In this document: positions 15,757-23,223 of the stretch, piece after piece
How positions within the stretch are numbered: the stretch's first letter is position 1
Layout: every line of letters begins with the position of its first letter
From: a virus
Lineage: Duplodnaviria > Heunggongvirae > Uroviricota > Caudoviricetes
DNA length: 32,306 nt
Virus record (IMG/VR): IMGVR_UViG_2802429237_000004
Span: 1 to 32,306 of that record
Strand: one strand, 5' to 3'
The notes under the pieces: generated by a model
Told to the model about the DNA's origin: nothing
Database searches by the model: none
Seen by the model: the letters and a program-made list of their open reading frames with translations, nothing else
Position numbers and translations under genes: made by a program

Positions 15757-16407
15757 TCAGCGGCTGTCATTGCGCAGTCTGCGCTCCAGCTGCTGTTTGT
15801 CTTTTTTCACGCCACAGCGGGGATCGAGCTGTAACGCATGGTTTAGATGATTAAGGGCGGAAGCCGGATTGCTTTCACTCAGGACTGCGCCAATCGCTTT
15901 ATGCAGACGCGCCCGTGACTGGTCCGGCATATCCAGACCGTCTGTCAGTTCCAGTGTCTGCAGTAACAGATCGGCATCAAAGCCGGTGGCGGCAAGCATT
16001 GCGCTCTGGGCTGCATCTGCCATTTCCTCTGCCAGCACGGTCTGCACGTTGCGGTTACCCAGCGGCATCACCCAGCCATGACGCAGGGCATGACGCCCGA
16101 TCTCCAGCGCCCCGGCATAATCTCCGGCATCAATGCGCCACAGCATCACGTACATCAGCACGTCATCCTGTTGAGCGCCTCCGGCAGCCAGGACACCCTC
16201 TGCCCAGGCGGCGTATTTCGGCAGCAGCTCCACCTTGATTTCCGCTTTTTTGACCGTGGACTGAACGCCCTTGAGACGGCAGCGGTCTTCCGCCAGTTGC
16301 AGCAGCATCAGGTCATAGCCCGACGCGTGGCGAACGCTGCCGCCCTCGCGGGCGGCCTGTTCAGCCTGAACGCGCAGGCGATGCTGCCGTGCGGGACTCA
16401 GGCTCAT
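15757..16407 (-). CDS. M: Terminase small (endonuclease) subunit M
   Basis: 216-aa ORF between major capsid N and L; P2 gpM position. Confidence 0.8.
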   Translation of the reverse strand: MSLSPARQHRLRVQAEQAAREGGSVRHASGYDLMLLQLAEDRCRLKGVQSTVKKAEIKVELLPKYAAWAEGVLAAGGAQQDDVLMYVMLWRIDAGDYAGALEIGRHALRHGWVMPLGNRNVQTVLAEEMADAAQSAMLAATGFDADLLLQTLELTDGLDMPDQSRARLHKAIGAVLSESNPASALNHLNHALQLDPRCGVKKDKQQLERRLRNDSR

Positions 16408-16410
16408 GGG

Positions 16411-17469
16411 TTACGCTCCGGCTTCTGCTGCAGCGGCGCTGAAATCGCCAATCTGGATGTTTTCCACCAGTGCGGCGCAGCGGTAGTCCTCAACCACATA
16501 GGCTTCGTTAACGGATTCAAAATTTTCAATCCGGTCACGTTTCGGGTTGTCGATAACTGAACGGCGGCGGGTGTCTTCCTGCCAGTAGATGGACAGGTTA
16601 TCCAGACGGGTGATCAGCAGCGCATTCGGCGGGAAGAACGGCGCACGGACGGCCTGCAGGCCCCCCATGCGTTTCTGGCTGATGATCATATCGGCAGCCA
16701 GTTTTTCACTGTTTTCCTGCTCTTTGTTGACCAGCGGGAAATACTTGTCAGACAGCAGTTCACGACCGCAAATCACCACCAGATCGTCATCGTCCTGGTA
16801 GACCACGTCGATAAGCTCATTGACCGCATCCATCACCACAGCGTCCAGGTTGGCATATTCGCCACCTTTACCGACTTTCACCGCGCCCGGTGTGGTTTCA
16901 CCGCCTGTGGTGGTGCTGCCCATGACGTGATCCGGTGCATCCTCGCGGATTTTCTGCAGCCAGCCTTTGTTCACATCCTGCAGCAGCGGGTTTTCACTAC
17001 GGTTGGAGGTTTTCGCACGCTTCACGCCGTTAAAGCCGATCATGATGCGGTCCAGTGCCTGACGTTTCACGATGGCGTCACGGATACGCACCTGGAAATC
17101 CTGAAACTTCGCCCACAGGTCCAGCTTCGCGTAGGTCAGCACCGTGTCAAAGTTGGTCTGCTCGCATTTATATTCCACATCGACCATCAGCGTCGGATCG
17201 ACAGGTTCACGCTCTTTCGCGGTGGTGTCAGTGGTTCCGGCAATGGTGCTGCCAACACCCAGCCCCAGCAGCTGACCGGACTGCTCAGTCACTGGCGTGA
17301 CGTTAATCAGCGTCAGGAAAGCGGCGGACTGCTGGATCTGGTCCTCCAGTGTCTGCTGCACAGACGGCTCCACAGTGAATTTGCTGGACAGTTCTTCAAC
17401 TGCCACACCGTTCAGACGCGCCAGCTGCTGCAGGTAAGCGTTAAAAGCAAAGCGGGTATTCTTCTTCAT
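16411..17469 (-). CDS. N: Major capsid protein N
   Basis: 352-aa ORF immediately after scaffold O; P2 gpN size and position. Confidence 0.9.
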   Translation of the reverse strand: MKKNTRFAFNAYLQQLARLNGVAVEELSSKFTVEPSVQQTLEDQIQQSAAFLTLINVTPVTEQSGQLLGLGVGSTIAGTTDTTAKEREPVDPTLMVDVEYKCEQTNFDTVLTYAKLDLWAKFQDFQVRIRDAIVKRQALDRIMIGFNGVKRAKTSNRSENPLLQDVNKGWLQKIREDAPDHVMGSTTTGGETTPGAVKVGKGGEYANLDAVVMDAVNELIDVVYQDDDDLVVICGRELLSDKYFPLVNKEQENSEKLAADMIISQKRMGGLQAVRAPFFPPNALLITRLDNLSIYWQEDTRRRSVIDNPKRDRIENFESVNEAYVVEDYRCAALVENIQIGDFSAAAAEAGA

Positions 17470-17485
17470 CGGGTTTTGTGCTCCA

Positions 17486-18319
17486 TCAGCAATTGGTCAG
17501 AGTGTCAGCGGGGGCGTTACCGCCTGTTGCACGCTGGCGGTAGTCCTGGCGGCTGTCTTCATGACTCAGCTTATCCACCAGTTCGTTAAAGGCGGCTTGT
17601 TGTGCCTGCAGGGCAGTCTCCATCTCAGACAGGCGTTCTTCCTGCTCAGACAGGGACTTTTCGGTGCGCGTGCTCAGGTTTTGCTGCTCAGTGGCGACCA
17701 GTTCCACGGCCTTATGCACATCAGAGAACCGGGCATCATCGGACTGCTCTTTTTTGGTGAACAGCGCCGTGACGCGGGCAAACAGGGACGGCTTGTCCTC
17801 TTGGATTTCTTCCAGTTCGATCACCGTTTCCTCTGCAGCGGTAAAAAGATTGGCGGGATTCTGCTTGCGGTTTGCCAGCGGGTTATGGGCTGCACTGGCG
17901 CTGAATGTCAGCATTTCCGTACCCAGACTGGCGGGATCATCAGTGGCAGCCAGGCCGACCAGGTAGGCTTTGCCCGTATCAGCAAACTTCGGGCTGACTT
18001 CCATAGAGGTGAATAATTTCTGGCCTTTTTTCACCAGCTCCACCAGAGATTCCGTTGGCTCAACGTCGGCATACAGCGCCATCTTGCCTGCCAGCGGACC
18101 TTCCGTGATTTCTTCAGCAAACAGCGCCGTCACCTTGCCGTAGCGGTTAAAGGTGCTGTCCGGCAGATAAGACTTGATGTGCTCAAGGTTAATCAGCGCG
18201 GTGTACACCGTCGGGTTGTAGCTGGCTGCCATCTGTTCCAGCCATTCACGCTGGATTTCGCGTCCGTCGGTGGTGGCACCTTCCACCCCGATGCGAAAAC
18301 GCTTTGCTTTCACTGTCAT
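17486..18319 (-). CDS. O: Capsid scaffolding protein O
   Basis: 277-aa ORF; N-terminal FRIGVEGATTDGREI and C-terminal ATGGNAPADTLTNC resemble P2 gpO as I recall it; divergent from P. Confidence 0.85.
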   Translation of the reverse strand: MTVKAKRFRIGVEGATTDGREIQREWLEQMAASYNPTVYTALINLEHIKSYLPDSTFNRYGKVTALFAEEITEGPLAGKMALYADVEPTESLVELVKKGQKLFTSMEVSPKFADTGKAYLVGLAATDDPASLGTEMLTFSASAAHNPLANRKQNPANLFTAAEETVIELEEIQEDKPSLFARVTALFTKKEQSDDARFSDVHKAVELVATEQQNLSTRTEKSLSEQEERLSEMETALQAQQAAFNELVDKLSHEDSRQDYRQRATGGNAPADTLTNC

Positions 18320-18397
18320 GAGCCGTGCTCCGTTAGAAAAAACTTACTGGAGCCTTATGGTTGCGGTGATGGGGGCAGTGAAACAATGCGCGGTATT

Positions 18398-18415
18398 TGT
18401 ACCGACAACCACACA
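18398..18415. promoter_or_regulatory. Candidate Ogr-dependent late promoter element (TGT-N12-ACA) in the divergent O/P control region
   Basis: tgtaccgacaaccacaca read directly; centred about 87 nt upstream of the O start codon, the same geometry as the FI site. Confidence 0.5.
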
Positions 18416-18461
18416 AACCGCAGGCGGGGAAAGCCTTCATTCAAGGCTGTAGGTTTGTGCC

Positions 18462-20228
18462 ATGAACACCACACTGACACCCGCAGATCTCGATCCCCGT
18501 CGGCAGGCCATGCTGCTGTACTTTCAGGGATACCGCGTCGCCCGCATTGCTGAAATGCTGGGCGAGAAAGTTGCAACCGTTCACAGCTGGAAAAAACGCG
18601 ACAAGTGGGGTGACTATGGGCCGCTGGATCAGATGCAGCTCACCACCGCCGCACGCTACTGCCAGCTCATTATGAAGGAGCACAAAGAAGGGAAAGATTT
18701 CAAAGAGATTGACCTGCTGGCGCGCCAGTCTGAGCGCCACGCGCGGATCGGCAAGTTTAACAATGGCGGCAACGAAGCTGACTTAAACCCTAACGTCGCC
18801 AACCGCAACAAAGGCCCGCGCCGTCAGCCGGAAAAGAATGTCTTCACCGATGAACAGATTGAGAAGCTGGAAGAAATCTTCCATTCCTCCATGTTCAACT
18901 ACCAGCGCCACTGGTGGGAAGCCGGAAAAACCAACCGCATCCGCAACCTGCTGAAGTCACGCCAGATCGGCGCGACCTTTTACTTTGCCCGTGAAGCCCT
19001 GATTGACGCCCTGCTTACCGGACGTAACCAGATTTTCCTTTCCGCCAGCAAGGCACAGGCCCACGTCTTTAAGCAGTACATCATCGACTTCGCCAAAGAA
19101 GTGGATGTGGAACTGAAAGGCGATCCGATGGTGCTTCCCAACGGGGCCACGCTTTACTTCCTCGGCACCAATGCCCGCACGGCCCAGAGTTACCACGGCA
19201 ACCTGTATCTGGATGAATATTTCTGGATACCGAAATTCCAGGAGCTGCGCAAAGTGGCTTCCGGTATGGCTATTCACAAAAAATGGCGACAGACCTATTT
19301 TTCCACGCCATCCAGTCTGACACACAGTGCTTATCCGTTCTGGTCCGGTGCGCTGTTCAACCGTGGGCGCAACAAAGCCGATAAGGTGGACATCGACCTG
19401 TCCCACAGCAATCTGGCCCCCGGCCTGCTGTGCGCAGACGGGCAATACCGCCAGATAGTCACCGTGGAAGATGCGGTGCGCGGCGGCTGCAACCTGTTCG
19501 ACCTTGACCAGTTGCGCATGGAGTACAGCCCGGACGAATACCAGAACCTGCTGATGTGCGAGTTCGTGGACGATCTCGCGTCCGTGTTCCCGCTCAGCGA
19601 GCTGCAGGCGTGCATGGTGGACAGCTGGGAAGTCTGGACCGACTTTCATGCACTGGCACTGCGCCCGTTTGGCTGGCGCGAAGTGTGGATCGGTTATGAC
19701 CCGGCGAAAGGTACGCAGAACGGCGACAGTGCCGGATGCGTGGTGGTGGCACCGCCAGCCGTGCCGGGCGGCAAGTTCCGCATTCTTGAGCGTCACCAGT
19801 GGCGCGGGATGGACTTTCGCGCCCAGGCTGACGCCATCAAAAAACTGACCGAACAGTACAACGTGACCTATATCGGCATCGACTCAACCGGCGTTGGTCA
19901 CGGGGTTTACGAGAACGTGAAAGCGTTTTTTCCTGCCGTCCGGGAGTTTGTCTACAACCCCAACGTTAAAAACGCCCTGGTACTCAAGGCCTACGACATT
20001 ATCAGCCACCGCCGTCTGGAGTTTGACGCCGGACACACCGACATAGCGCAGTCATTTATGGCAATCCGTCGCGCCACCACCGCCAGTGGCAACCGCCCGA
20101 CCTATGAAGCCAGCCGCAGCGAAGAAGCCAGCCACGCCGATCTGGCCTGGGCAACCATGCACGCACTGTTTAACGAACCGCTGCAGGGCGAGTCCGCCAA
20201 TACCAGCAATATTGTGGAGATTTTTTGA
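18462..20228 (+). CDS. P: Terminase large (ATPase) subunit P
   Basis: 588-aa ORF divergent from O and followed by portal Q with overlapping stop/start (TGATG); P2 gpP size and position. Confidence 0.9.
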   Translation: MNTTLTPADLDPRRQAMLLYFQGYRVARIAEMLGEKVATVHSWKKRDKWGDYGPLDQMQLTTAARYCQLIMKEHKEGKDFKEIDLLARQSERHARIGKFNNGGNEADLNPNVANRNKGPRRQPEKNVFTDEQIEKLEEIFHSSMFNYQRHWWEAGKTNRIRNLLKSRQIGATFYFAREALIDALLTGRNQIFLSASKAQAHVFKQYIIDFAKEVDVELKGDPMVLPNGATLYFLGTNARTAQSYHGNLYLDEYFWIPKFQELRKVASGMAIHKKWRQTYFSTPSSLTHSAYPFWSGALFNRGRNKADKVDIDLSHSNLAPGLLCADGQYRQIVTVEDAVRGGCNLFDLDQLRMEYSPDEYQNLLMCEFVDDLASVFPLSELQACMVDSWEVWTDFHALALRPFGWREVWIGYDPAKGTQNGDSAGCVVVAPPAVPGGKFRILERHQWRGMDFRAQADAIKKLTEQYNVTYIGIDSTGVGHGVYENVKAFFPAVREFVYNPNVKNALVLKAYDIISHRRLEFDAGHTDIAQSFMAIRRATTASGNRPTYEASRSEEASHADLAWATMHALFNEPLQGESANTSNIVEIF

Positions 20229-21265
20229 TGGGAAAGAGTAAAAAGAACCGCGCTGCGGCGACGAAACAGATCCAGCTTAAAAGCCAGACTACAGCCGAAG
20301 CATTCAGCTTCGGCGATCCCGTTCCTGTTCTGGACCGCCGAGAACTGCTGGACTATGTGGAATGCGTACAGATGGACCGTTGGTATGAGCCGCCCGTCAG
20401 CTTTGACGGACTGGCGCGCACCTTCCGCGCTGCCGTGCATCACAGTTCCCCGATTGCAGTAAAGTGCAACATTCTGACCAGTACCTATATCCCTCATCCG
20501 CTGCTCAGCCAGCAGGCTTTTTCGCGTTTTGTGCAGGACTATCTGGTATTTGGTAACGCCTACCTGGAGAAACGCACGAACCGCTTCGGTGAAGTTATCG
20601 CCCTTGAGCCTGCGCTGGCAAAATACACCCGACGCGGATTAGACCTGGATACCTACTGGTTTGTGCAATACGGCATGACTACGCAGCCGTATCAGTTCAC
20701 GAAAGGCAGCATTTTTCATCTGATGGAACCGGACATCAACCAGGAGATCTACGGCCTGCCCGGTTATCTTTCTGCCATTCCGTCAGCCCTGCTCAACGAG
20801 TCCGCCACGCTGTTCCGCCGGAAGTATTACATTAACGGTAGTCATGCAGGCTTCATCATGTACATGACCGATGCCGCGCAGAACCAGGAAGACGTGAACA
20901 ACCTCCGCAACGCAATGAAAAGCGCCAAAGGACCGGGTAACTTCCGCAACCTGTTTATGTACTCGCCTAACGGGAAAAAGGACGGACTTCAGATTATCCC
21001 GTTGTCAGAAGTGGCGGCGAAGGATGAGTTTCTAAACATCAAGAACGTGAGCCGGGATGACATGATGGCGGCGCATCGTGTGCCACCGCAAATGATGGGG
21101 ATTATGCCTAATAATGTTGGGGGATTTGGGGATGTAGAGAAAGCTAGTAATGTATTTGTGCGAAATGAATTACTACCATTGCAAAAGCGAATCACAGAAT
21201 TTAATGAGTGGATAGGAAACAATGTAGTTCAATTTGAGCCTTATACTTTCGAGATTAGAGAATAA
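20228..21265 (+). CDS. Q: Portal protein Q
   Basis: ORF-track start at 20225 is a TTG; the ATG at 20228 (MGKSKKNR) overlaps the P stop; about 345 aa, P2 gpQ size and position; the last 150 nt or so are conspicuously AT-rich. Confidence 0.9.
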   Translation: MGKSKKNRAAATKQIQLKSQTTAEAFSFGDPVPVLDRRELLDYVECVQMDRWYEPPVSFDGLARTFRAAVHHSSPIAVKCNILTSTYIPHPLLSQQAFSRFVQDYLVFGNAYLEKRTNRFGEVIALEPALAKYTRRGLDLDTYWFVQYGMTTQPYQFTKGSIFHLMEPDINQEIYGLPGYLSAIPSALLNESATLFRRKYYINGSHAGFIMYMTDAAQNQEDVNNLRNAMKSAKGPGNFRNLFMYSPNGKKDGLQIIPLSEVAAKDEFLNIKNVSRDDMMAAHRVPPQMMGIMPNNVGGFGDVEKASNVFVRNELLPLQKRITEFNEWIGNNVVQFEPYTFEIRE

Positions 21266-21289
21266 AATATACTATTAAAACAAGGTAAT

Positions 21290-21308
21290 GGCCGATTTAA
21301 TATCGGCC
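21290..21308. terminator. Bidirectional hairpin between convergent Q and the DUF4062-like cargo gene
   Basis: ggccgat-ttaat-atcggcc perfect 7-bp stem in the 49-nt gap between the two stop codons, with T-rich flanks on both sides. Confidence 0.5.
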
Positions 21309-21314
21309 TTTAAA

Positions 21315-22346
21315 CTATCTTTTTATTGCTCGTAGAGTAGTCATTAAATTCTCCCCATAAGGGGTTAAGGTCCAATATGTACCCTTGTCTTTTACACTTC
21401 TATTTCTTTCACTTTGGACCATAAGCCCTAGAGCTCGGAATTGTACTTTGATTGTCTGGACATCAGAACTATCCATACGAATAAACTTTATATGCATATT
21501 TTTAAAATCATCATCCGACCTCAACCCTGCCTCAACAATTTCATAGATGGAAGCGTTGATCAACGTTTTTAATCTATCATCGGAAATTTCATCAATCATA
21601 TAGGGAGAAATATAGGAAAATAATGAATTCCAACTTATCTGAGAGGTCCACTCATACTCTGAACCATCAGATGTCCACTCTGTAGGAGAAGCATGGAAGC
21701 TACATTTAAAAGTAAATAAATCGTCTCCTTGTGCAAGATCCTCAGTCCCTTTCGGTGCAGTTGTGGTATTCTTACTTAATTGATTTTCAAGTTCCTCAAT
21801 AGTCCTCTTCAACCCAAGAATTTCTTTTGCTGAACTCTCACTAGTAACTAAATCTCCACGAACCCATCCTACAGCAGGATGATCTTTAATAAGCCTAATC
21901 AAACTTCTACTGACTTGGCTTCCTAAGTCCGCAGGAGTTTCCCAGAATCGGCAAAGTTTCTTTTTAACAAGCTCTTCAAATGCTTCTAGCTTTTCTTTTC
22001 CTTGAGGAGATGGCTCACATCGCTGGGATGGTAAAAGACCTTTATTTTTGTGCAAAAAACCAATTACTGGCTTTCCTGATTCAACAGCGTAACGATACTC
22101 CATCTCAGTATAACTTATCCCATCAGGCCCTAAGGAACCGTAACGCCCCGCAAGGATTACAATGTAATAATCACTATCATCAATTATTTTCTTTATTAAG
22201 CTCCATTGATCACTATTAGTAGCAGGAAACAACTCCATACCAGCAGGTATACAATCCAGCTCTAAAAGAGCCTGCATGACCTCTTGACGTTCAGTTTCCA
22301 GGTCTGAGTATGTTGAACTAACAAAAACTTGATACCGCTTGTCCAA
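21315..22346 (-). CDS. AT-rich cargo gene: protein with DUF4062-like N-terminal module and unknown C-terminal domain (candidate defence/abortive-infection effector)
   Basis: 343-aa ORF; N-terminus YQVFVSSTYSDLETERQEVMQALLELDCIPAGMELFPA...DYYIVILAGRYGS matches my recollection of the DUF4062 signature; in-frame start is TTG preceded by GAGGGA at good spacing (no upstream in-frame ATG; the next ATG would cut the conserved motif); flanked by terminator hairpins. Confidence 0.6.
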   Translation of the reverse strand: MDKRYQVFVSSTYSDLETERQEVMQALLELDCIPAGMELFPATNSDQWSLIKKIIDDSDYYIVILAGRYGSLGPDGISYTEMEYRYAVESGKPVIGFLHKNKGLLPSQRCEPSPQGKEKLEAFEELVKKKLCRFWETPADLGSQVSRSLIRLIKDHPAVGWVRGDLVTSESSAKEILGLKRTIEELENQLSKNTTTAPKGTEDLAQGDDLFTFKCSFHASPTEWTSDGSEYEWTSQISWNSLFSYISPYMIDEISDDRLKTLINASIYEIVEAGLRSDDDFKNMHIKFIRMDSSDVQTIKVQFRALGLMVQSERNRSVKDKGTYWTLTPYGENLMTTLRAIKR

Positions 22347-22414
22347 ACCGCATCCCTCATGATTATTACTTTAAACAATGTAATATTTTTTACTCCATAT
22401 TTAATTTGCGCGCA

Positions 22415-22433
22415 ATCGTATCCCCGCCACGCC
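22415..22433 (-). other. cos-like cohesive-end site
   Basis: Minus-strand GGCGTGGCGGGGATACGAT; the first 13 nt match the 19-nt cohesive end of P2/186 as I recall it (GGCG[A/T]GGCGGGGAAAGCA[C/T]); lies between the SOS operon terminator and the cargo gene. Confidence 0.45.
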
Positions 22434-22478
22434 TGCCCGCTTTATGTAGTGGTTTTCATGCACCTGCATAATCTACGC

Positions 22479-22502: not shown

Positions 22503-22637
22503 CTTAGCAAAAACGATCCTCAAACGATCATGCGATCTCATGCGGCATAGACATGCACTACAGAGTTAACGCCTCGCAAGGGCTCGTTGTTCAACCTTGC
22601 TGACGCCAGAAGCAAGTTCAGACGCCAGCAACGTTTC

Positions 22638-22871
22638 TTAATGCAGCCAGCTGTCGTCTTCCCACACCTTCTGCATAATTTTCATCACTTGTTTTCTTTC
22701 TTCGTCCAGTTGCAGTCCGGTTAGTTCCACACCGTTAGAGCTACCTTTGCGAATGCGAATTACCGTTTTGGGATACAGGGGGCGCAGATTGCGGTAAAGC
22801 TCGGATTCAAGGGCGTCCAGGGTAGACTGGCTAATCTTCTGCTCTTTATCGATCATTATTTCAATGCGCAT
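22638..22871 (-). CDS. DinI-family protein (second gene of SOS operon)
   Basis: Start set at the internal MRIEIMIDKEQ, preceded by GAGGTG Shine-Dalgarno; 77 aa; N-terminus and C-terminal ...VWEDDSWLH resemble E. coli DinI and the C-terminal half of 186 Tum as I recall them. Confidence 0.6.
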   Translation of the reverse strand: MRIEIMIDKEQKISQSTLDALESELYRNLRPLYPKTVIRIRKGSSNGVELTGLQLDEERKQVMKIMQKVWEDDSWLH

Positions 22872-22881
22872 AAAAGTCACC

Positions 22882-23070
22882 TCAGCTGATGACATCCATT
22901 GAGCGGTTGTATTCGTGGGTTCTGATTTTTGCCATGAGTTCATCAGTCAATTCAGAAACCCACTGCAGAGCCAGCCCCTTCTCTTCATCACTACACTCAC
23001 TAGCCGCTACAAGCTTAAGAAAAAAATCAATGCGCTGGAGCTTCAAAGACTCCAAAAAATAGTCCTGCAT
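22882..23070 (-). CDS. Small SOS-operon protein (possibly the N-terminal part of a Tum-like antirepressor)
   Basis: Start set at the internal MQDYFLESL, which has a perfect AGGAGGAAAG Shine-Dalgarno directly upstream and lies 30-60 nt downstream of LexA boxes; the ORF-track start at 23172 would place the LexA boxes inside the coding sequence. Confidence 0.5.
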   Translation of the reverse strand: MQDYFLESLKLQRIDFFLKLVAASECSDEEKGLALQWVSELTDELMAKIRTHEYNRSMDVIS

Positions 23071-23098
23071 CTTTCCTCCTATGACACCACACGCAACA

Positions 23099-23129
23099 CT
23101 GTATGTATAACCACTGTTTATATTTACAG
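23099..23129. promoter_or_regulatory. Tandem LexA (SOS) boxes at the promoter of the tum/dinI-like operon
   Basis: Perfect CTG-N10-CAG with AT-rich core (ctgtttatatttacag, about 23114-23129) abutting an imperfect copy (ctgtatgtataaccac, about 23099-23114); LexA consensus is CTGTATATATATACAG. Confidence 0.6.
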
Positions 23130-23223
23130 CATATAATAATCTTACTGATGTAAAACGTTTTTTTACGTTCATCAGCCTGATATGCCTGGTATTATTAAGA
23201 GCACGAATTGTTAACCCGCGTAA

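What the first reader, a model, noticed from the sequence alone, without database searches (positions are those of the whole stretch)
21110..21265. Sharp switch to AT-rich sequence inside the 3' end of portal gene Q: recombination junction for the adjacent cargo
The last 150 nt or so of Q (from about ...atgcctaataatgttggg... onward) are visibly AT-rich, like the cargo gene beyond, while the rest of Q is GC-rich like the other structural genes. This suggests the cargo was acquired by recombination with a breakpoint inside the conserved portal 3' end, i.e. the Q C-terminus is mosaic and travels with the cargo.
Basis: seen in the sequence. Interest (0 to 1): 0.45.

Follow-up and report, generated by a model that had tools for sequence, protein, structure and literature searches.

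The report
Portal gene tail travels with defence cargo
In this P2-like prophage the last 55 or so codons of the essential portal gene Q belong to the same swappable DNA block as the neighbouring anti-phage gene, which shows where defence cassettes are cut and pasted between such phages.

Summary
Third-codon-position GC (GC3) in portal gene Q falls from 0.66 to 0.27 at about 21098–21107 (p = 1.5e-7), matching the adjacent cargo (0.31) and not the other late genes (0.65–0.72).

- Against a phage whose Q body is about 19% diverged (L130), divergence drops to 4.8% in the tail and 3.8% in the cargo.
- Against phages with a 93–96% identical Q body but only 70% identical cargo, the tail decays to 0.45–0.72 identity.
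- The same holds for three unrelated cargo types (partial Mantel, tail~cargo given body, r = 0.78).
- In 50 loci, 26 cargo types map one-to-one onto 26 tail types (ARI 1.00).
- When the slot between Q and cos is empty, as in P2, the tail has normal GC.

Left junctions recur at 21086–21135 but also occur elsewhere in Q. The right boundary of the shared block is at or near cos (22415–22433).

The most likely mechanism is homologous crossover in the Q 3' end, exchanging the terminal cos-to-Q-tail block of the linear genome.

The cargo is a full-length homologue of Swarozyc, a portal-activated NADase. The hotspot itself is already known. The fine-scale junction and the linkage of the portal C-terminus to the cargo were not found in the papers I could read.

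The parts
20228..21097 (+). Portal gene Q, body (codons 1-290). It has backbone-type composition and is inherited with the phage backbone.
   Evidence: Pfam Phage_portal E = 2e-17. GC3 0.66. 19.2% mismatch to L130 and 7.8% to L132, while the tail and cargo are far closer.
21086..21135 (+). Recurrent left junction interval, which is also the GC3 switch. It includes the AT-type block ATGCCTAATAATGTTGGGGGATTTGGGGATGT.
   Evidence: The last dense backbone mismatch is at 21085-21091 in WIN against L130 and L132, and at window-equivalent 21085-21088 in five independent pairs from the DUF4145 cargo family. GC3 change point at 21107. The block occurs exactly in at least 80 viral contigs. A GC-type synonymous version occurs in loci without AT-rich cargo.
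21098..21187 (+). Q tail, zone 2 (codons 291-320, GIMPNNVGGFGDVEKASNVFVRNELLPLQK). The protein is conserved, the codons are AT-rich, and the nucleotide sequence downstream of the shared block (from about 21134) is specific to each cargo type.
   Evidence: pN 0.09, similar to the body, but pS 0.80 against 0.60 in the body. Synonymous identity falls from about 0.60 to 0.42-0.48 from 21089 on. Proximal-tail clusters (the 60 nt after the block) match cargo clusters with ARI 1.00.
21188..21265 (+). Q tail, zone 3 (the last 25 or so codons plus stop). This is the hypervariable, cargo-specific C-terminus.
   Evidence: Mean 35% amino-acid identity to 118 database portals whose bodies are 90% identical. 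pN 0.32. No AT-rich distal tail was shared between different cargo types.
21290..21308 (.). Hairpin GGCCGAT-TTAAT-ATCGGCC between the convergent Q and cargo genes. It is probably a bidirectional terminator and is part of the cassette.
   Evidence: Fold -13.2 kcal/mol, z = -3.5, no shuffle folded as well. Other cassettes carry a different hairpin at the same place. The simple terminator scan did not flag it.
21315..22346 (-). Cargo: a 343-aa DUF4062 protein, a full-length homologue of the Swarozyc (KpSwz) TIR-like NADase.
   Evidence: Pfam DUF4062 E = 7e-29. PDB 10wc/11cq/11cv KpSwz E = 2.8e-69 over residues 1-342. GC 0.39, GC3 0.31. No PADLOC 2023 model matched.
22347..22407 (-). Upstream region of the cargo (presumed promoter). 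This is the right end of the cassette-specific DNA.
   Evidence: Against L130, divergence returns to about 13-14% from 22351 on. Homology with a phage carrying a different cargo (Cartapus, L004) resumes at about 22408. No sigma-70 consensus match was found, so the promoter is inferred.
22415..22433 (.). cos cohesive-end equivalent (ATCGTATCCCCGCCACGCC). This is the right boundary of the exchanged block.
   Evidence: It aligns with the P2 cos sequence GTGCTTTCCCCGCCTCGCC and with the annotated cos of phage Cartapus. In 9 of 10 usable same-cargo pairs, identity is high (0.82-1.00, mostly 0.95 or more) up to the cos motif and 0.78-0.93 just beyond it. WIN against L134 has 0 mismatches over 16000-22446 and then about 17%.
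22560..22628 (.). Junction of a second, independent variable slot between cos and the DinI-like gene. It is empty in this window.
   Evidence: Relatives with the same cargo carry a DndB-family pair, an ASCH-domain gene or a 72 + 280 aa pair here.

Best explanation
The last 165 nt or so of portal gene Q, the hairpin terminator, the cargo gene and its upstream region up to cos form one linkage block (about 21090-22410). P2-like phages exchange this block as a unit.

The exchange is by homologous recombination. The left crossover falls in the 3' part of Q, most often in the interval 21086-21135, which is the last sequence shared between backbones before the cassette-specific tails begin. The right boundary is cos.

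The Q-to-cos slot lies at the extreme end of the packaged linear genome. A single crossover in Q, followed by cos-to-cos packaging, is therefore enough to move the whole terminal block onto another backbone. A second crossover in the conserved cos core would give the same pattern.

Because the cargo polymorphism is old and very diverse, the Q tail linked to each cargo has diverged much further than the Q body and has taken on the AT-rich composition of the cargo. The protein stays functional: residues 291-320 are conserved, and only the last 25 or so residues are free to vary.

Shown here: the block structure, the linkage of tail to cargo, and the junction positions. Inferred: the recombination pathway, the single-crossover and packaging step, and the cause of the AT-richness.
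For: - Composition switch.
- WIN against L130/L131 (cargo 97% aa): 167/872 mismatches in the Q body, 8/166 in the tail and 39/1032 in the cargo; Fisher body against tail p = 7.5e-7.
- WIN against L132: 7.8%, 3.0% and 0.3%.
- WIN against L087-089 (Q body 93-96% nt, cargo 70% aa): tail identity decays to 0.83, 0.72 and 0.45.
- 74 loci from different species: tail GC against downstream GC r = 0.84.
- Empty slot (n = 7, plus P2): tail minus body GC3 = -0.03. Occupied slot (n = 50): -0.26, p = 2.6e-5.
- Three other cargo families show the same linkage: DUF4145 (L163-L178) 0.83/0.96/0.97 and, conversely, L168-L176 0.97/0.65/0.59; Hypoth_Ymh 0.93/0.99/1.00; DprA-like 0.94/0.99/0.99, given as body/tail/cargo identity.
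- Partial Mantel: tail~cargo given body r = 0.78, p = 0.0005; tail~body given cargo r = 0.30.
- 26 cargo clusters equal 26 tail clusters, ARI 1.00, against body ARI 0.71.
- Junction positions.
- Right boundary at cos.
- Deeper synonymous divergence in the tail.
Against: - For WIN against L130 the global max-chi-square break within Q falls at 20789, not 21090, because 20800-21000 is also fairly similar. The 21086-21105 break is a local call (16/79 against 8/180 mismatches).
- For that same pair the right-hand drop begins at about 22351, some 65 nt before cos, so not every block ends exactly at cos. L179-L180 also drops about 200 nt before cos.
- Across the wider sample of species, the 21089-21133 block is not unusually conserved, so a dedicated crossover site is not shown.
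- No Q gene that is AT-rich throughout was found as a donor, and the reason the tail is AT-rich is unexplained.
- Many loci are related prophages, so the pairs are not fully independent.
Confidence: 0.85

Rival explanations
1. There is no recombination. The Q C-terminus is weakly constrained and has drifted towards AT in place, under the same local mutational regime as the neighbouring AT-rich DNA.
For: The last 25 or so codons are relaxed (pN 0.32), and tail GC follows downstream GC.
Against: Drift in place cannot make the tail more similar than the body between distant backbones (WIN-L130 0.95 against 0.80; L163-L178 0.96 against 0.83), nor give a one-to-one match between tail and cargo across different bodies. 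Zone 2 is as constrained as the body at the protein level yet is still AT-rich and cargo-specific.
Confidence: 0.03
2. The cassette is inserted by a site-specific or integron-like mechanism at a fixed core site in the Q 3' end, rather than by general homologous recombination.
For: Junctions recur at 21086-21089 in six comparisons. A 32-nt block is shared exactly by at least 80 contigs carrying 26 cargo types. From memory, an older paper (Nilsson et al. 2004, not held) argued for site-specific recombination in this region.
Against: Junctions also occur at 21142-21213 and at 21023, 20915, 20795, 20525 and 20471. GC3 change points fall into at least four groups. No recombinase gene is called in or next to the slot in the relatives examined. 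The block is not exceptionally conserved in the wider sample. The tail beyond the block is a diverged but genuine Q sequence, as expected for homologous flanks.
Confidence: 0.07
3. The AT-rich tail is an intrinsic functional feature of Q in this clade, for example RNA structure, translation pausing or transcription termination for the convergent genes, and has nothing to do with the cargo.
For: Most enterobacterial loci (50 of 57) have a GC3 drop in the tail, and the proximal AT-type codons are shared by many lineages.
Against: Loci with an empty slot (L011, L023, L028, L053, L061, L062 and P2) encode the same protein motif with GC-type codons, and their tail GC3 equals the body. Change points differ between lineages.
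Confidence: 0.04
4. The linkage is adaptive. Each portal C-terminus is co-adapted to its neighbouring defence gene, so that, for example, the prophage's own portal does not trigger its portal-sensing Swarozyc-like NADase.
For: The cargo is a full-length homologue of KpSwz, which is reported to be activated by a phage portal (preprint 10.64898/2026.05.01.722283). Tail and cargo types correspond one-to-one.
Against: The same linkage holds for unrelated cargo types (DUF4145, Hypoth_Ymh, DprA-like). Q tails next to DUF4062 homologues (L087, L103, L118, L119) share no common signature. There is no sign of positive selection. The published KpSwz contacts are on the portal stem, clip and wing, not the C-terminal crown. 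Most KpSwz-like genes in viral contigs are not next to Q.
Confidence: 0.06

Closest known systems
The gpA-gpQ (cos-proximal, 'old/tin') defence hotspot of P2-like phages (Rousset et al. 2022, PMC9122126; NAR 2026, PMC13586616)
   Same: Same locus. It is a P2-like prophage with hypervariable cargo between portal Q and replication gene A, next to cos, and defence genes are swapped rapidly between backbones. I found 52 cargo clusters in 77 loci.
   Different: Those papers delimit the hotspot by whole genes. They report almost no linkage between defence genes and any core gene (Spearman <= 0.2) and leave the exchange mechanism open. Here the boundary is resolved to inside Q. The last 55 or so codons are fully linked to the cargo, the region contains two independent slots (Q to cos, and cos to DinI), and the shared block ends at or near cos.
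Hitchhiking of conserved flanks with hypervariable loci, such as gnd next to the O-antigen rfb cluster in E. coli, and mosaic junctions inside genes of lambdoid phages (from general knowledge, not re-read here)
   Same: A conserved gene next to an old, diverse polymorphism shows excess divergence, foreign composition and a phylogeny that follows the neighbouring variable locus. Junctions are scattered, as expected for homologous crossovers.
   Different: Here the hitchhiking flank is the 3' end of an essential virion gene, so every cassette brings its own portal C-terminus. The other boundary is a packaging site rather than a second flanking gene.
Swarozyc (KpSwz), a single-gene DUF4062 TIR-like NADase defence (preprint 10.64898/2026.05.01.722283; PDB 10wc, 11cq, 11cv)
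   Same: The cargo aligns over its full length with KpSwz (E = 2.8e-69). Its N-terminal DUF4062 domain is highly similar, and a Glu aligns with the TE motif of KpSwz that is probably its catalytic E97.
   Different: The auxiliary (sensor) half is much more diverged and contains indels. Activity, trigger and NADase function are untested for this protein. Its position next to the prophage's own portal gene is not mentioned in either preprint.

Membership tests
P2-like phage gpA-gpQ cos-proximal defence hotspot | The locus lies in a P2-like prophage between portal gene Q and replication gene A | tested here: met
   Pfam finds Phage_portal, the gpP-type terminase domains and Phage_GPA. Gene order is the same as in annotated Peduoviridae.
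P2-like phage gpA-gpQ cos-proximal defence hotspot | Gene content at the locus is hypervariable among otherwise related phages | tested here: met
   52 cargo clusters in 77 loci. 26 cargo clusters in 50 loci that share an identical Q block.
P2-like phage gpA-gpQ cos-proximal defence hotspot | [quoted passage not shown] | tested here: met
   cos equivalent at 22415-22433, 69 nt from the cargo start codon. Same layout as the annotated cos of Cartapus.
P2-like phage gpA-gpQ cos-proximal defence hotspot | The cargo confers anti-phage defence | not testable with these tools
   There is only homology to the experimentally characterised KpSwz.
Recombination junction with a hitchhiking flank (mosaic gene end) | Pairwise divergence changes abruptly at the proposed junction | tested here: met
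   WIN-L130: 19.2% falls to 4.8%. Max-chi-square breaks at 21086-21089 in five other pairs. Breaks at 21142-21213 against other cassettes.
Recombination junction with a hitchhiking flank (mosaic gene end) | The flank and the rest of the gene have incongruent ancestry, with the flank following the variable locus | tested here: met
   Partial Mantel tail~cargo given body r = 0.78, p = 0.0005. ARI of tail against cargo 1.00, of body against cargo 0.71.
Recombination junction with a hitchhiking flank (mosaic gene end) | The flank has the composition of the variable locus | tested here: met
   GC3: tail 0.27, cargo 0.31, Q body 0.66. The tail has normal GC3 when the slot is empty.
Site-specific cassette insertion (integron-like or att-like) | A single fixed core site at all junctions | tested here: not met
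   Junctions are at 21086-21135, 21142-21213, 21023, 20915, 20795, 20525 and 20471. GC3 change points fall into at least four groups.
Site-specific cassette insertion (integron-like or att-like) | A dedicated recombinase encoded at or next to the site | tested here: not met
   Between Q and gene A, the window and its relatives have only the cargo, slot-2 genes, a DinI-like gene and a small hypothetical gene. A distant recombinase such as the prophage integrase is not excluded.
Swarozyc (DUF4062 portal-activated NADase) | N-terminal DUF4062 (TIR-like) domain | tested here: met
   PF13271 E = 6.9e-29, residues 6-87.
Swarozyc (DUF4062 portal-activated NADase) | Full-length homology to KpSwz, including the auxiliary sensor domain | tested here: met
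   phmmer E = 2.8e-69, query residues 1-342 against chain residues 2-323. The auxiliary half is weaker and has indels.
Swarozyc (DUF4062 portal-activated NADase) | Catalytic glutamate (E97 in KpSwz) | tested here: inconclusive
   Query E81 aligns with chain E82 in a conserved S-x-T-E motif. Mapping chain residue 82 to native E97 rests on my assumption about the numbering of the 16-C construct.
Swarozyc (DUF4062 portal-activated NADase) | NADase activity triggered by a phage portal, leading to abortive infection | not testable with these tools
   Known only for KpSwz, from the preprint.

The most novel reading that the evidence does not exclude
The portal C-terminus and the adjacent defence gene are a co-adapted pair. 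Each cassette brings a portal tail that keeps the prophage's own portal from triggering its cargo, or otherwise tunes its interaction with it. Here the cargo is a Swarozyc-like NADase, a type reported to be switched on by phage portals. The tail-cargo linkage would then be kept by selection for self-tolerance and not only by physical proximity.
Probability: 0.06. Interest if true: 0.8.

Novelty: new member of a known kind. Interest (0 to 1): 0.45.

Why it matters
The cos-proximal hotspot of P2-like phages is one of the richest known reservoirs of anti-phage systems. Both papers that describe it leave open how cassettes are exchanged.

Three results make that question directly testable in phage crosses:
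- The exchanged unit runs from inside the portal gene to cos.
- Left junctions concentrate in a 50-nt interval.
- Each cargo type carries its own old, diverged portal C-terminus.

There are also practical consequences:
- Hotspot boundaries drawn at the Q stop codon miss part of the cassette.
- The Q tail can serve as a short barcode for the adjacent cargo type.
- Whole-gene comparisons of Q understate its linkage to defence genes.
- The portal C-terminal 25 or so residues tolerate wholesale replacement, which is useful for engineering.

Tried and rejected
- **PADLOC scan of the cargo and two neighbouring ORFs:** no hits, because the 2023 library predates Swarozyc and Evangelion.
- **Exact P2 cos sequence in the window with up to 3 mismatches:** no match. 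cos was found later by aligning the P2 and Cartapus junctions.
- **The cargo in INPHARED phages and in complete E. coli genomes:** only two remote Acinetobacter hits among phages, and only the Q tail, not the cargo, in E. coli.
- **First max-chi-square scan, WIN against L130:** it was captured by the poorly aligned Q N-terminus. The repeat from 20300 placed the global break at 20789, so the 21086-21105 junction for this pair rests on local mismatch counts.
- **A uniquely conserved crossover site at 21089-21133:** rejected for the wide sample. Third-position conservation there is 0.64 against a gene mean of 0.67.
- **AlphaFold model of Q from 59 close homologues:** mean pLDDT 37.6, so it is unusable except for helix 303-329, and no fold search was run.
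- **Sequence and profile searches of the PDB with Q:** no hits, so assigning the tail to the portal crown is an inference.
- **Simple promoter and terminator scan:** it found no promoter for the cargo and did not flag the intergenic hairpin.
- **Odegrip 2006 and Nilsson 2004:** not held, so earlier descriptions of variation at the Q 3' end cannot be excluded.
- **WIN-L132 row of the cos-boundary table:** mis-anchored and ignored.
- **Search for an AT-rich donor Q gene:** all 50 Q bodies that carry the AT-type block have GC3 0.61-0.79.
Full report
**1. Context**

The window is a P2-like (Peduoviridae) prophage, read in reverse relative to the P2 map.
- Terminase gene P is at 18462-20228 (+).
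- Portal gene Q is at 20228-21265 (+).
- A convergent 343-aa cargo gene is at 21315-22346 (-).
- A DinI-like gene and replication gene A lie further on.
- The source contig is L135 (GCA_002965485.1, PTRM01000012.1), which is 100% identical over 10 kb.
- cos lies at about 22415-22433 (ATCGTATCCCCGCCACGCC), found by alignment to the P2 cohesive end and to the annotated cos of phage Cartapus.

The cargo therefore fills the interval between the Q stop codon and cos. In P2 itself that interval is only 167 nt and holds just the tQ terminator, and old and tin lie on the other side of cos.

**2.

- GC falls from 0.51-0.55 to 0.29-0.37 at about 21100.
- GC3 is 0.659 in codons 1-290 and 0.273 in codons 291-345 (Fisher p = 1.5e-7).
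- The best change point is at 21107, and none of 2000 permutations reached it.
- Tail GC3 equals cargo GC3 (0.31) and contrasts with P, N, O and A (0.57-0.72).
- The shift is largely synonymous. Residues 291-320 (GIMPNNVGGFGDVEKASNVFVRNELLPLQK) are conserved in all relatives. Loci with AT-rich cargo encode them with AT-type codons, and loci without such cargo use GC-type codons.

**3. Direct evidence for a junction in this prophage**

L130 and L131 are P2-like phages whose P and Q bodies are only about 80-84% identical to the window, but their cargo is 97% identical at the protein level.
- Mismatch density is 167/872 (19.2%) in the Q body, 8/166 (4.8%) in the tail and 39/1032 (3.8%) in the cargo.
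- Dense mismatches stop at 21085. After that there are five between 21106 and 21145 and only three more to the stop codon.
- Divergence returns to about 13% from 22351 on.

L132 gives 7.8%, 3.0% and 0.3% for the same three segments.

L087-L089 show the converse. Their Q bodies are 93-96% identical to the window and their cargo is only 70% identical. Their identity to the window decays from 21100 onward (0.83, 0.72, 0.45).

Caveat: the global max-chi-square break for WIN against L130 lies at 20789, because 20800-21000 is also fairly conserved. The 21086-21105 call for this pair is a local one.

**4. The pattern holds across the family**

- In 74 loci from different species, tail GC correlates with the GC of the next 300 nt (r = 0.84). 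The difference between tail and body correlates with the difference between downstream DNA and body (r = 0.78).
- When the slot is empty (Q stop to cos 154-255 nt, n = 7, plus P2), tail GC3 equals body GC3 (difference -0.03). When it is occupied (615-3505 nt, n = 50), the tail is 0.26 lower (p = 2.6e-5).
- The slot is extremely diverse, with 52 cargo clusters in 77 loci.
- Three unrelated cargo types behave the same way. For DUF4145, L163-L178 has body 0.83, tail 0.96 and cargo 0.97, whereas L168-L176 has 0.97, 0.65 and 0.59. Hypoth_Ymh gives 0.93, 0.99 and 1.00. The DprA-like cargo gives 0.94, 0.99 and 0.99.
- For 38 DUF4145 loci, the partial Mantel correlation of tail with cargo given body is 0.78 (p = 0.0005). 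Tail with body given cargo is 0.30.
- Among 50 usable contigs that share the exact AT-type block, 26 cargo clusters correspond one-to-one to 26 proximal-tail clusters and 26 distal-tail clusters (ARI 1.00). Body clusters match cargo with ARI 0.71. Seven of twelve multi-member cargo types sit on more than one body type, and three body types carry two different cargos.
- At the protein level, 118 database portals average 90% identity to the window in the body and 35% in the last 25 residues. P0123 has a 99% identical body but only 36% there.

**5. Anatomy of the boundary**

*Left side.*
- In same-cargo pairs with different bodies, the break falls at window-equivalent 21086-21089 in five independent DUF4145 pairs, as in WIN against L130 and L132. 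In other pairs it falls at 21023, 20915, 20795, 20525 and 20471.
- Against relatives with a close body and other cargo, homology ends at 21142, 21145, 21160, 21169, 21173 and 21213.
- GC3 change points in 51 loci fall into groups at 21098-21116 (about 22 loci), 21140-21170, 21188-21203 and about 21218.
- The crossovers are therefore scattered, as expected for homologous recombination. They are enriched at the interface between backbone-type and cassette-type sequence.
- I first thought the 21089-21133 block was a specially conserved crossover site. Over the wide sample it is not, so I do not claim that.

*Right side.*
- In 9 of 10 usable pairs, identity is high (0.82-1.00, mostly 0.95 or more) up to the cos motif. 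It then drops to 0.78-0.93 within 40-120 nt and is lost at the second variable slot.
- WIN against L134 has no mismatch from 16000 to 22446 and then about 17%.
- Two pairs drop somewhat before cos: WIN-L130 about 65 nt before it, and L179-L180 about 200 nt before it.

**6. Age and constraint**

- Between different cargo types, synonymous third-position identity is about 0.60 along the Q body and falls to 0.42-0.48 from 21089 onward.
- Nei-Gojobori proportions are pS 0.60 and pN 0.074 in the body, pS 0.80 and pN 0.092 in zone 2, and pS 0.85 and pN 0.315 in zone 3.
- The tails are therefore older alleles than the bodies. Zone 2 is under the same protein constraint as the body. The last 25 or so codons are relaxed but keep a recognisable pattern (R-x-x-E-h-N-x-W-x-G-x-x-h-h-x-F-x-x-Y, where h is hydrophobic). 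Nothing suggests positive selection.
- The only confidently modelled element of Q is a long helix at residues 303-329. That this belongs to the portal crown is an inference from general knowledge of portals.

**7. Mechanism**

*Shown:* the last 165 nt or so of Q, the hairpin (21290-21308, z = -3.5), the cargo and its upstream region form one linkage block that ends at or near cos.

*Inferred:* the block is exchanged by homologous crossover in Q. In the packaged linear genome, the Q-to-cos slot is the extreme terminal segment. By classical phage genetics, one crossover in Q followed by cos-to-cos packaging yields a recombinant whose two apparent junctions in the prophage map are the crossover point and cos.

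Rousset et al. speculated that there is a cos-end event plus one homologous event, and the data fit that idea. They fit equally well a second ordinary crossover in the conserved cos core, which is the only shared sequence between two variable slots. These data cannot separate the two.

*Not explained:* why the tails are AT-rich. All 50 Q bodies that carry the AT-type block are GC3-rich, so no AT-rich donor lineage was seen. Long co-residence with the cargo under the same mutational or selective regime, or reduced homologous exchange next to heterologous DNA, are untested ideas.

**8. Comparison with what is known**

- The gpA-gpQ hotspot next to cos is well described (PMC9122126; PMC13586616).
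- The 2026 study reports very low linkage between defence genes and every core gene at whole-gene resolution (Spearman <= 0.2). It lists homologous recombination via flanking genes as one possibility among several.
- In the two hotspot papers I could read, I found no statement that the boundary lies inside Q or that the portal C-terminus is inherited with the cargo. Two older papers on this region are not held, so I cannot exclude prior description.
- As a phenomenon, this is a hitchhiking flank or mosaic junction at a known hotspot, which is a known kind of thing.

**9. The cargo**

- It has an N-terminal DUF4062 domain and aligns over its full length with KpSwz (PDB 10wc, E = 2.8e-69).
- KpSwz (Swarozyc) is reported to be a TIR-like NADase. 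It assembles on a phage portal and causes abortive infection.
- A related preprint describes other DUF4062 defences under the name Evangelion.
- A portal-sensing defence gene next to the prophage's own portal gene, sharing a recombination block with that portal's C-terminus, is suggestive.
- However, the same linkage exists for unrelated cargo types. Tails next to DUF4062 homologues share no signature. Most family members in viral contigs are not next to Q. The published contacts are not on the portal C-terminus.
- I therefore rate functional coupling as unlikely (about 6%).

**10. Verdict**

This is a new, well-resolved instance of a known kind of feature at a known hotspot. It has moderate interest because it makes the open question of the exchange mechanism testable.

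Noticed in passing
window 21315-22346 (-): The cargo is a full-length homologue of Swarozyc (KpSwz, PDB 10wc), a DUF4062 TIR-like NADase reported in a 2026 preprint to be activated by phage portal proteins. Here it sits convergent to, and 50 nt from, the prophage's own portal gene. PADLOC 2023 has no model for it.
   Followed up: partly
window 22560-22628: A second, independently assorting variable slot lies between cos and the DinI-like gene. It is empty in the window. Relatives with the identical cargo carry a DndB-family pair (L132, L133, L136), an ASCH-domain gene (L134, L138) or a 72 + 280 aa pair (L130, L131) there.
   Followed up: partly
L132 7082-8119 and L137 1871-2908 (window-equivalent about 20822); L133, L136: In several relatives with a 100% identical cargo protein, Q is broken into 198 + 135 aa ORFs by a substitution (there are no indels in the alignment), or is not called at all. 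These look like decaying prophages that keep an intact defence gene.
   Followed up: partly
L103, L118, L119 (viral contigs): Distant DUF4062 homologues (37-50% aa identity) also sit convergent to Q in P2-like phages whose Q is only 55-71% identical. In L103, from a higher-GC background, the DNA downstream of Q (GC 0.59) and the Q tail (0.52) are GC-rich. Cassette composition therefore follows the host range rather than being AT-rich everywhere.
   Followed up: partly
window 22437-22452: A terminator-like hairpin (CCGCTTTATGTAGTGG followed by TTTTCATGCA) lies immediately next to the cohesive-end sequence, inside the conserved cos core. It is conserved in Cartapus, and P2 has a comparable element (CGCTTCACGGGGCGGTTTTAATGCACC).
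   Followed up: no
window 22638-22943 (-) and 22882-23172 (-): The mechanical ORFs are longer than the genes called in the identical contig L135. There the DinI-like gene is 77 aa (window 22638-22871) and the next gene is a 62-aa hypothetical (window 22882-23070). The 101-aa and 96-aa ORFs overlap each other and probably overextend.
   Followed up: no
window 20989-21222 (-): A 77-aa ORF with a TTG start lies antisense to the Q tail. I found no evidence that it is a gene, and it is probably a by-product of the AT-rich sequence.
   Followed up: no
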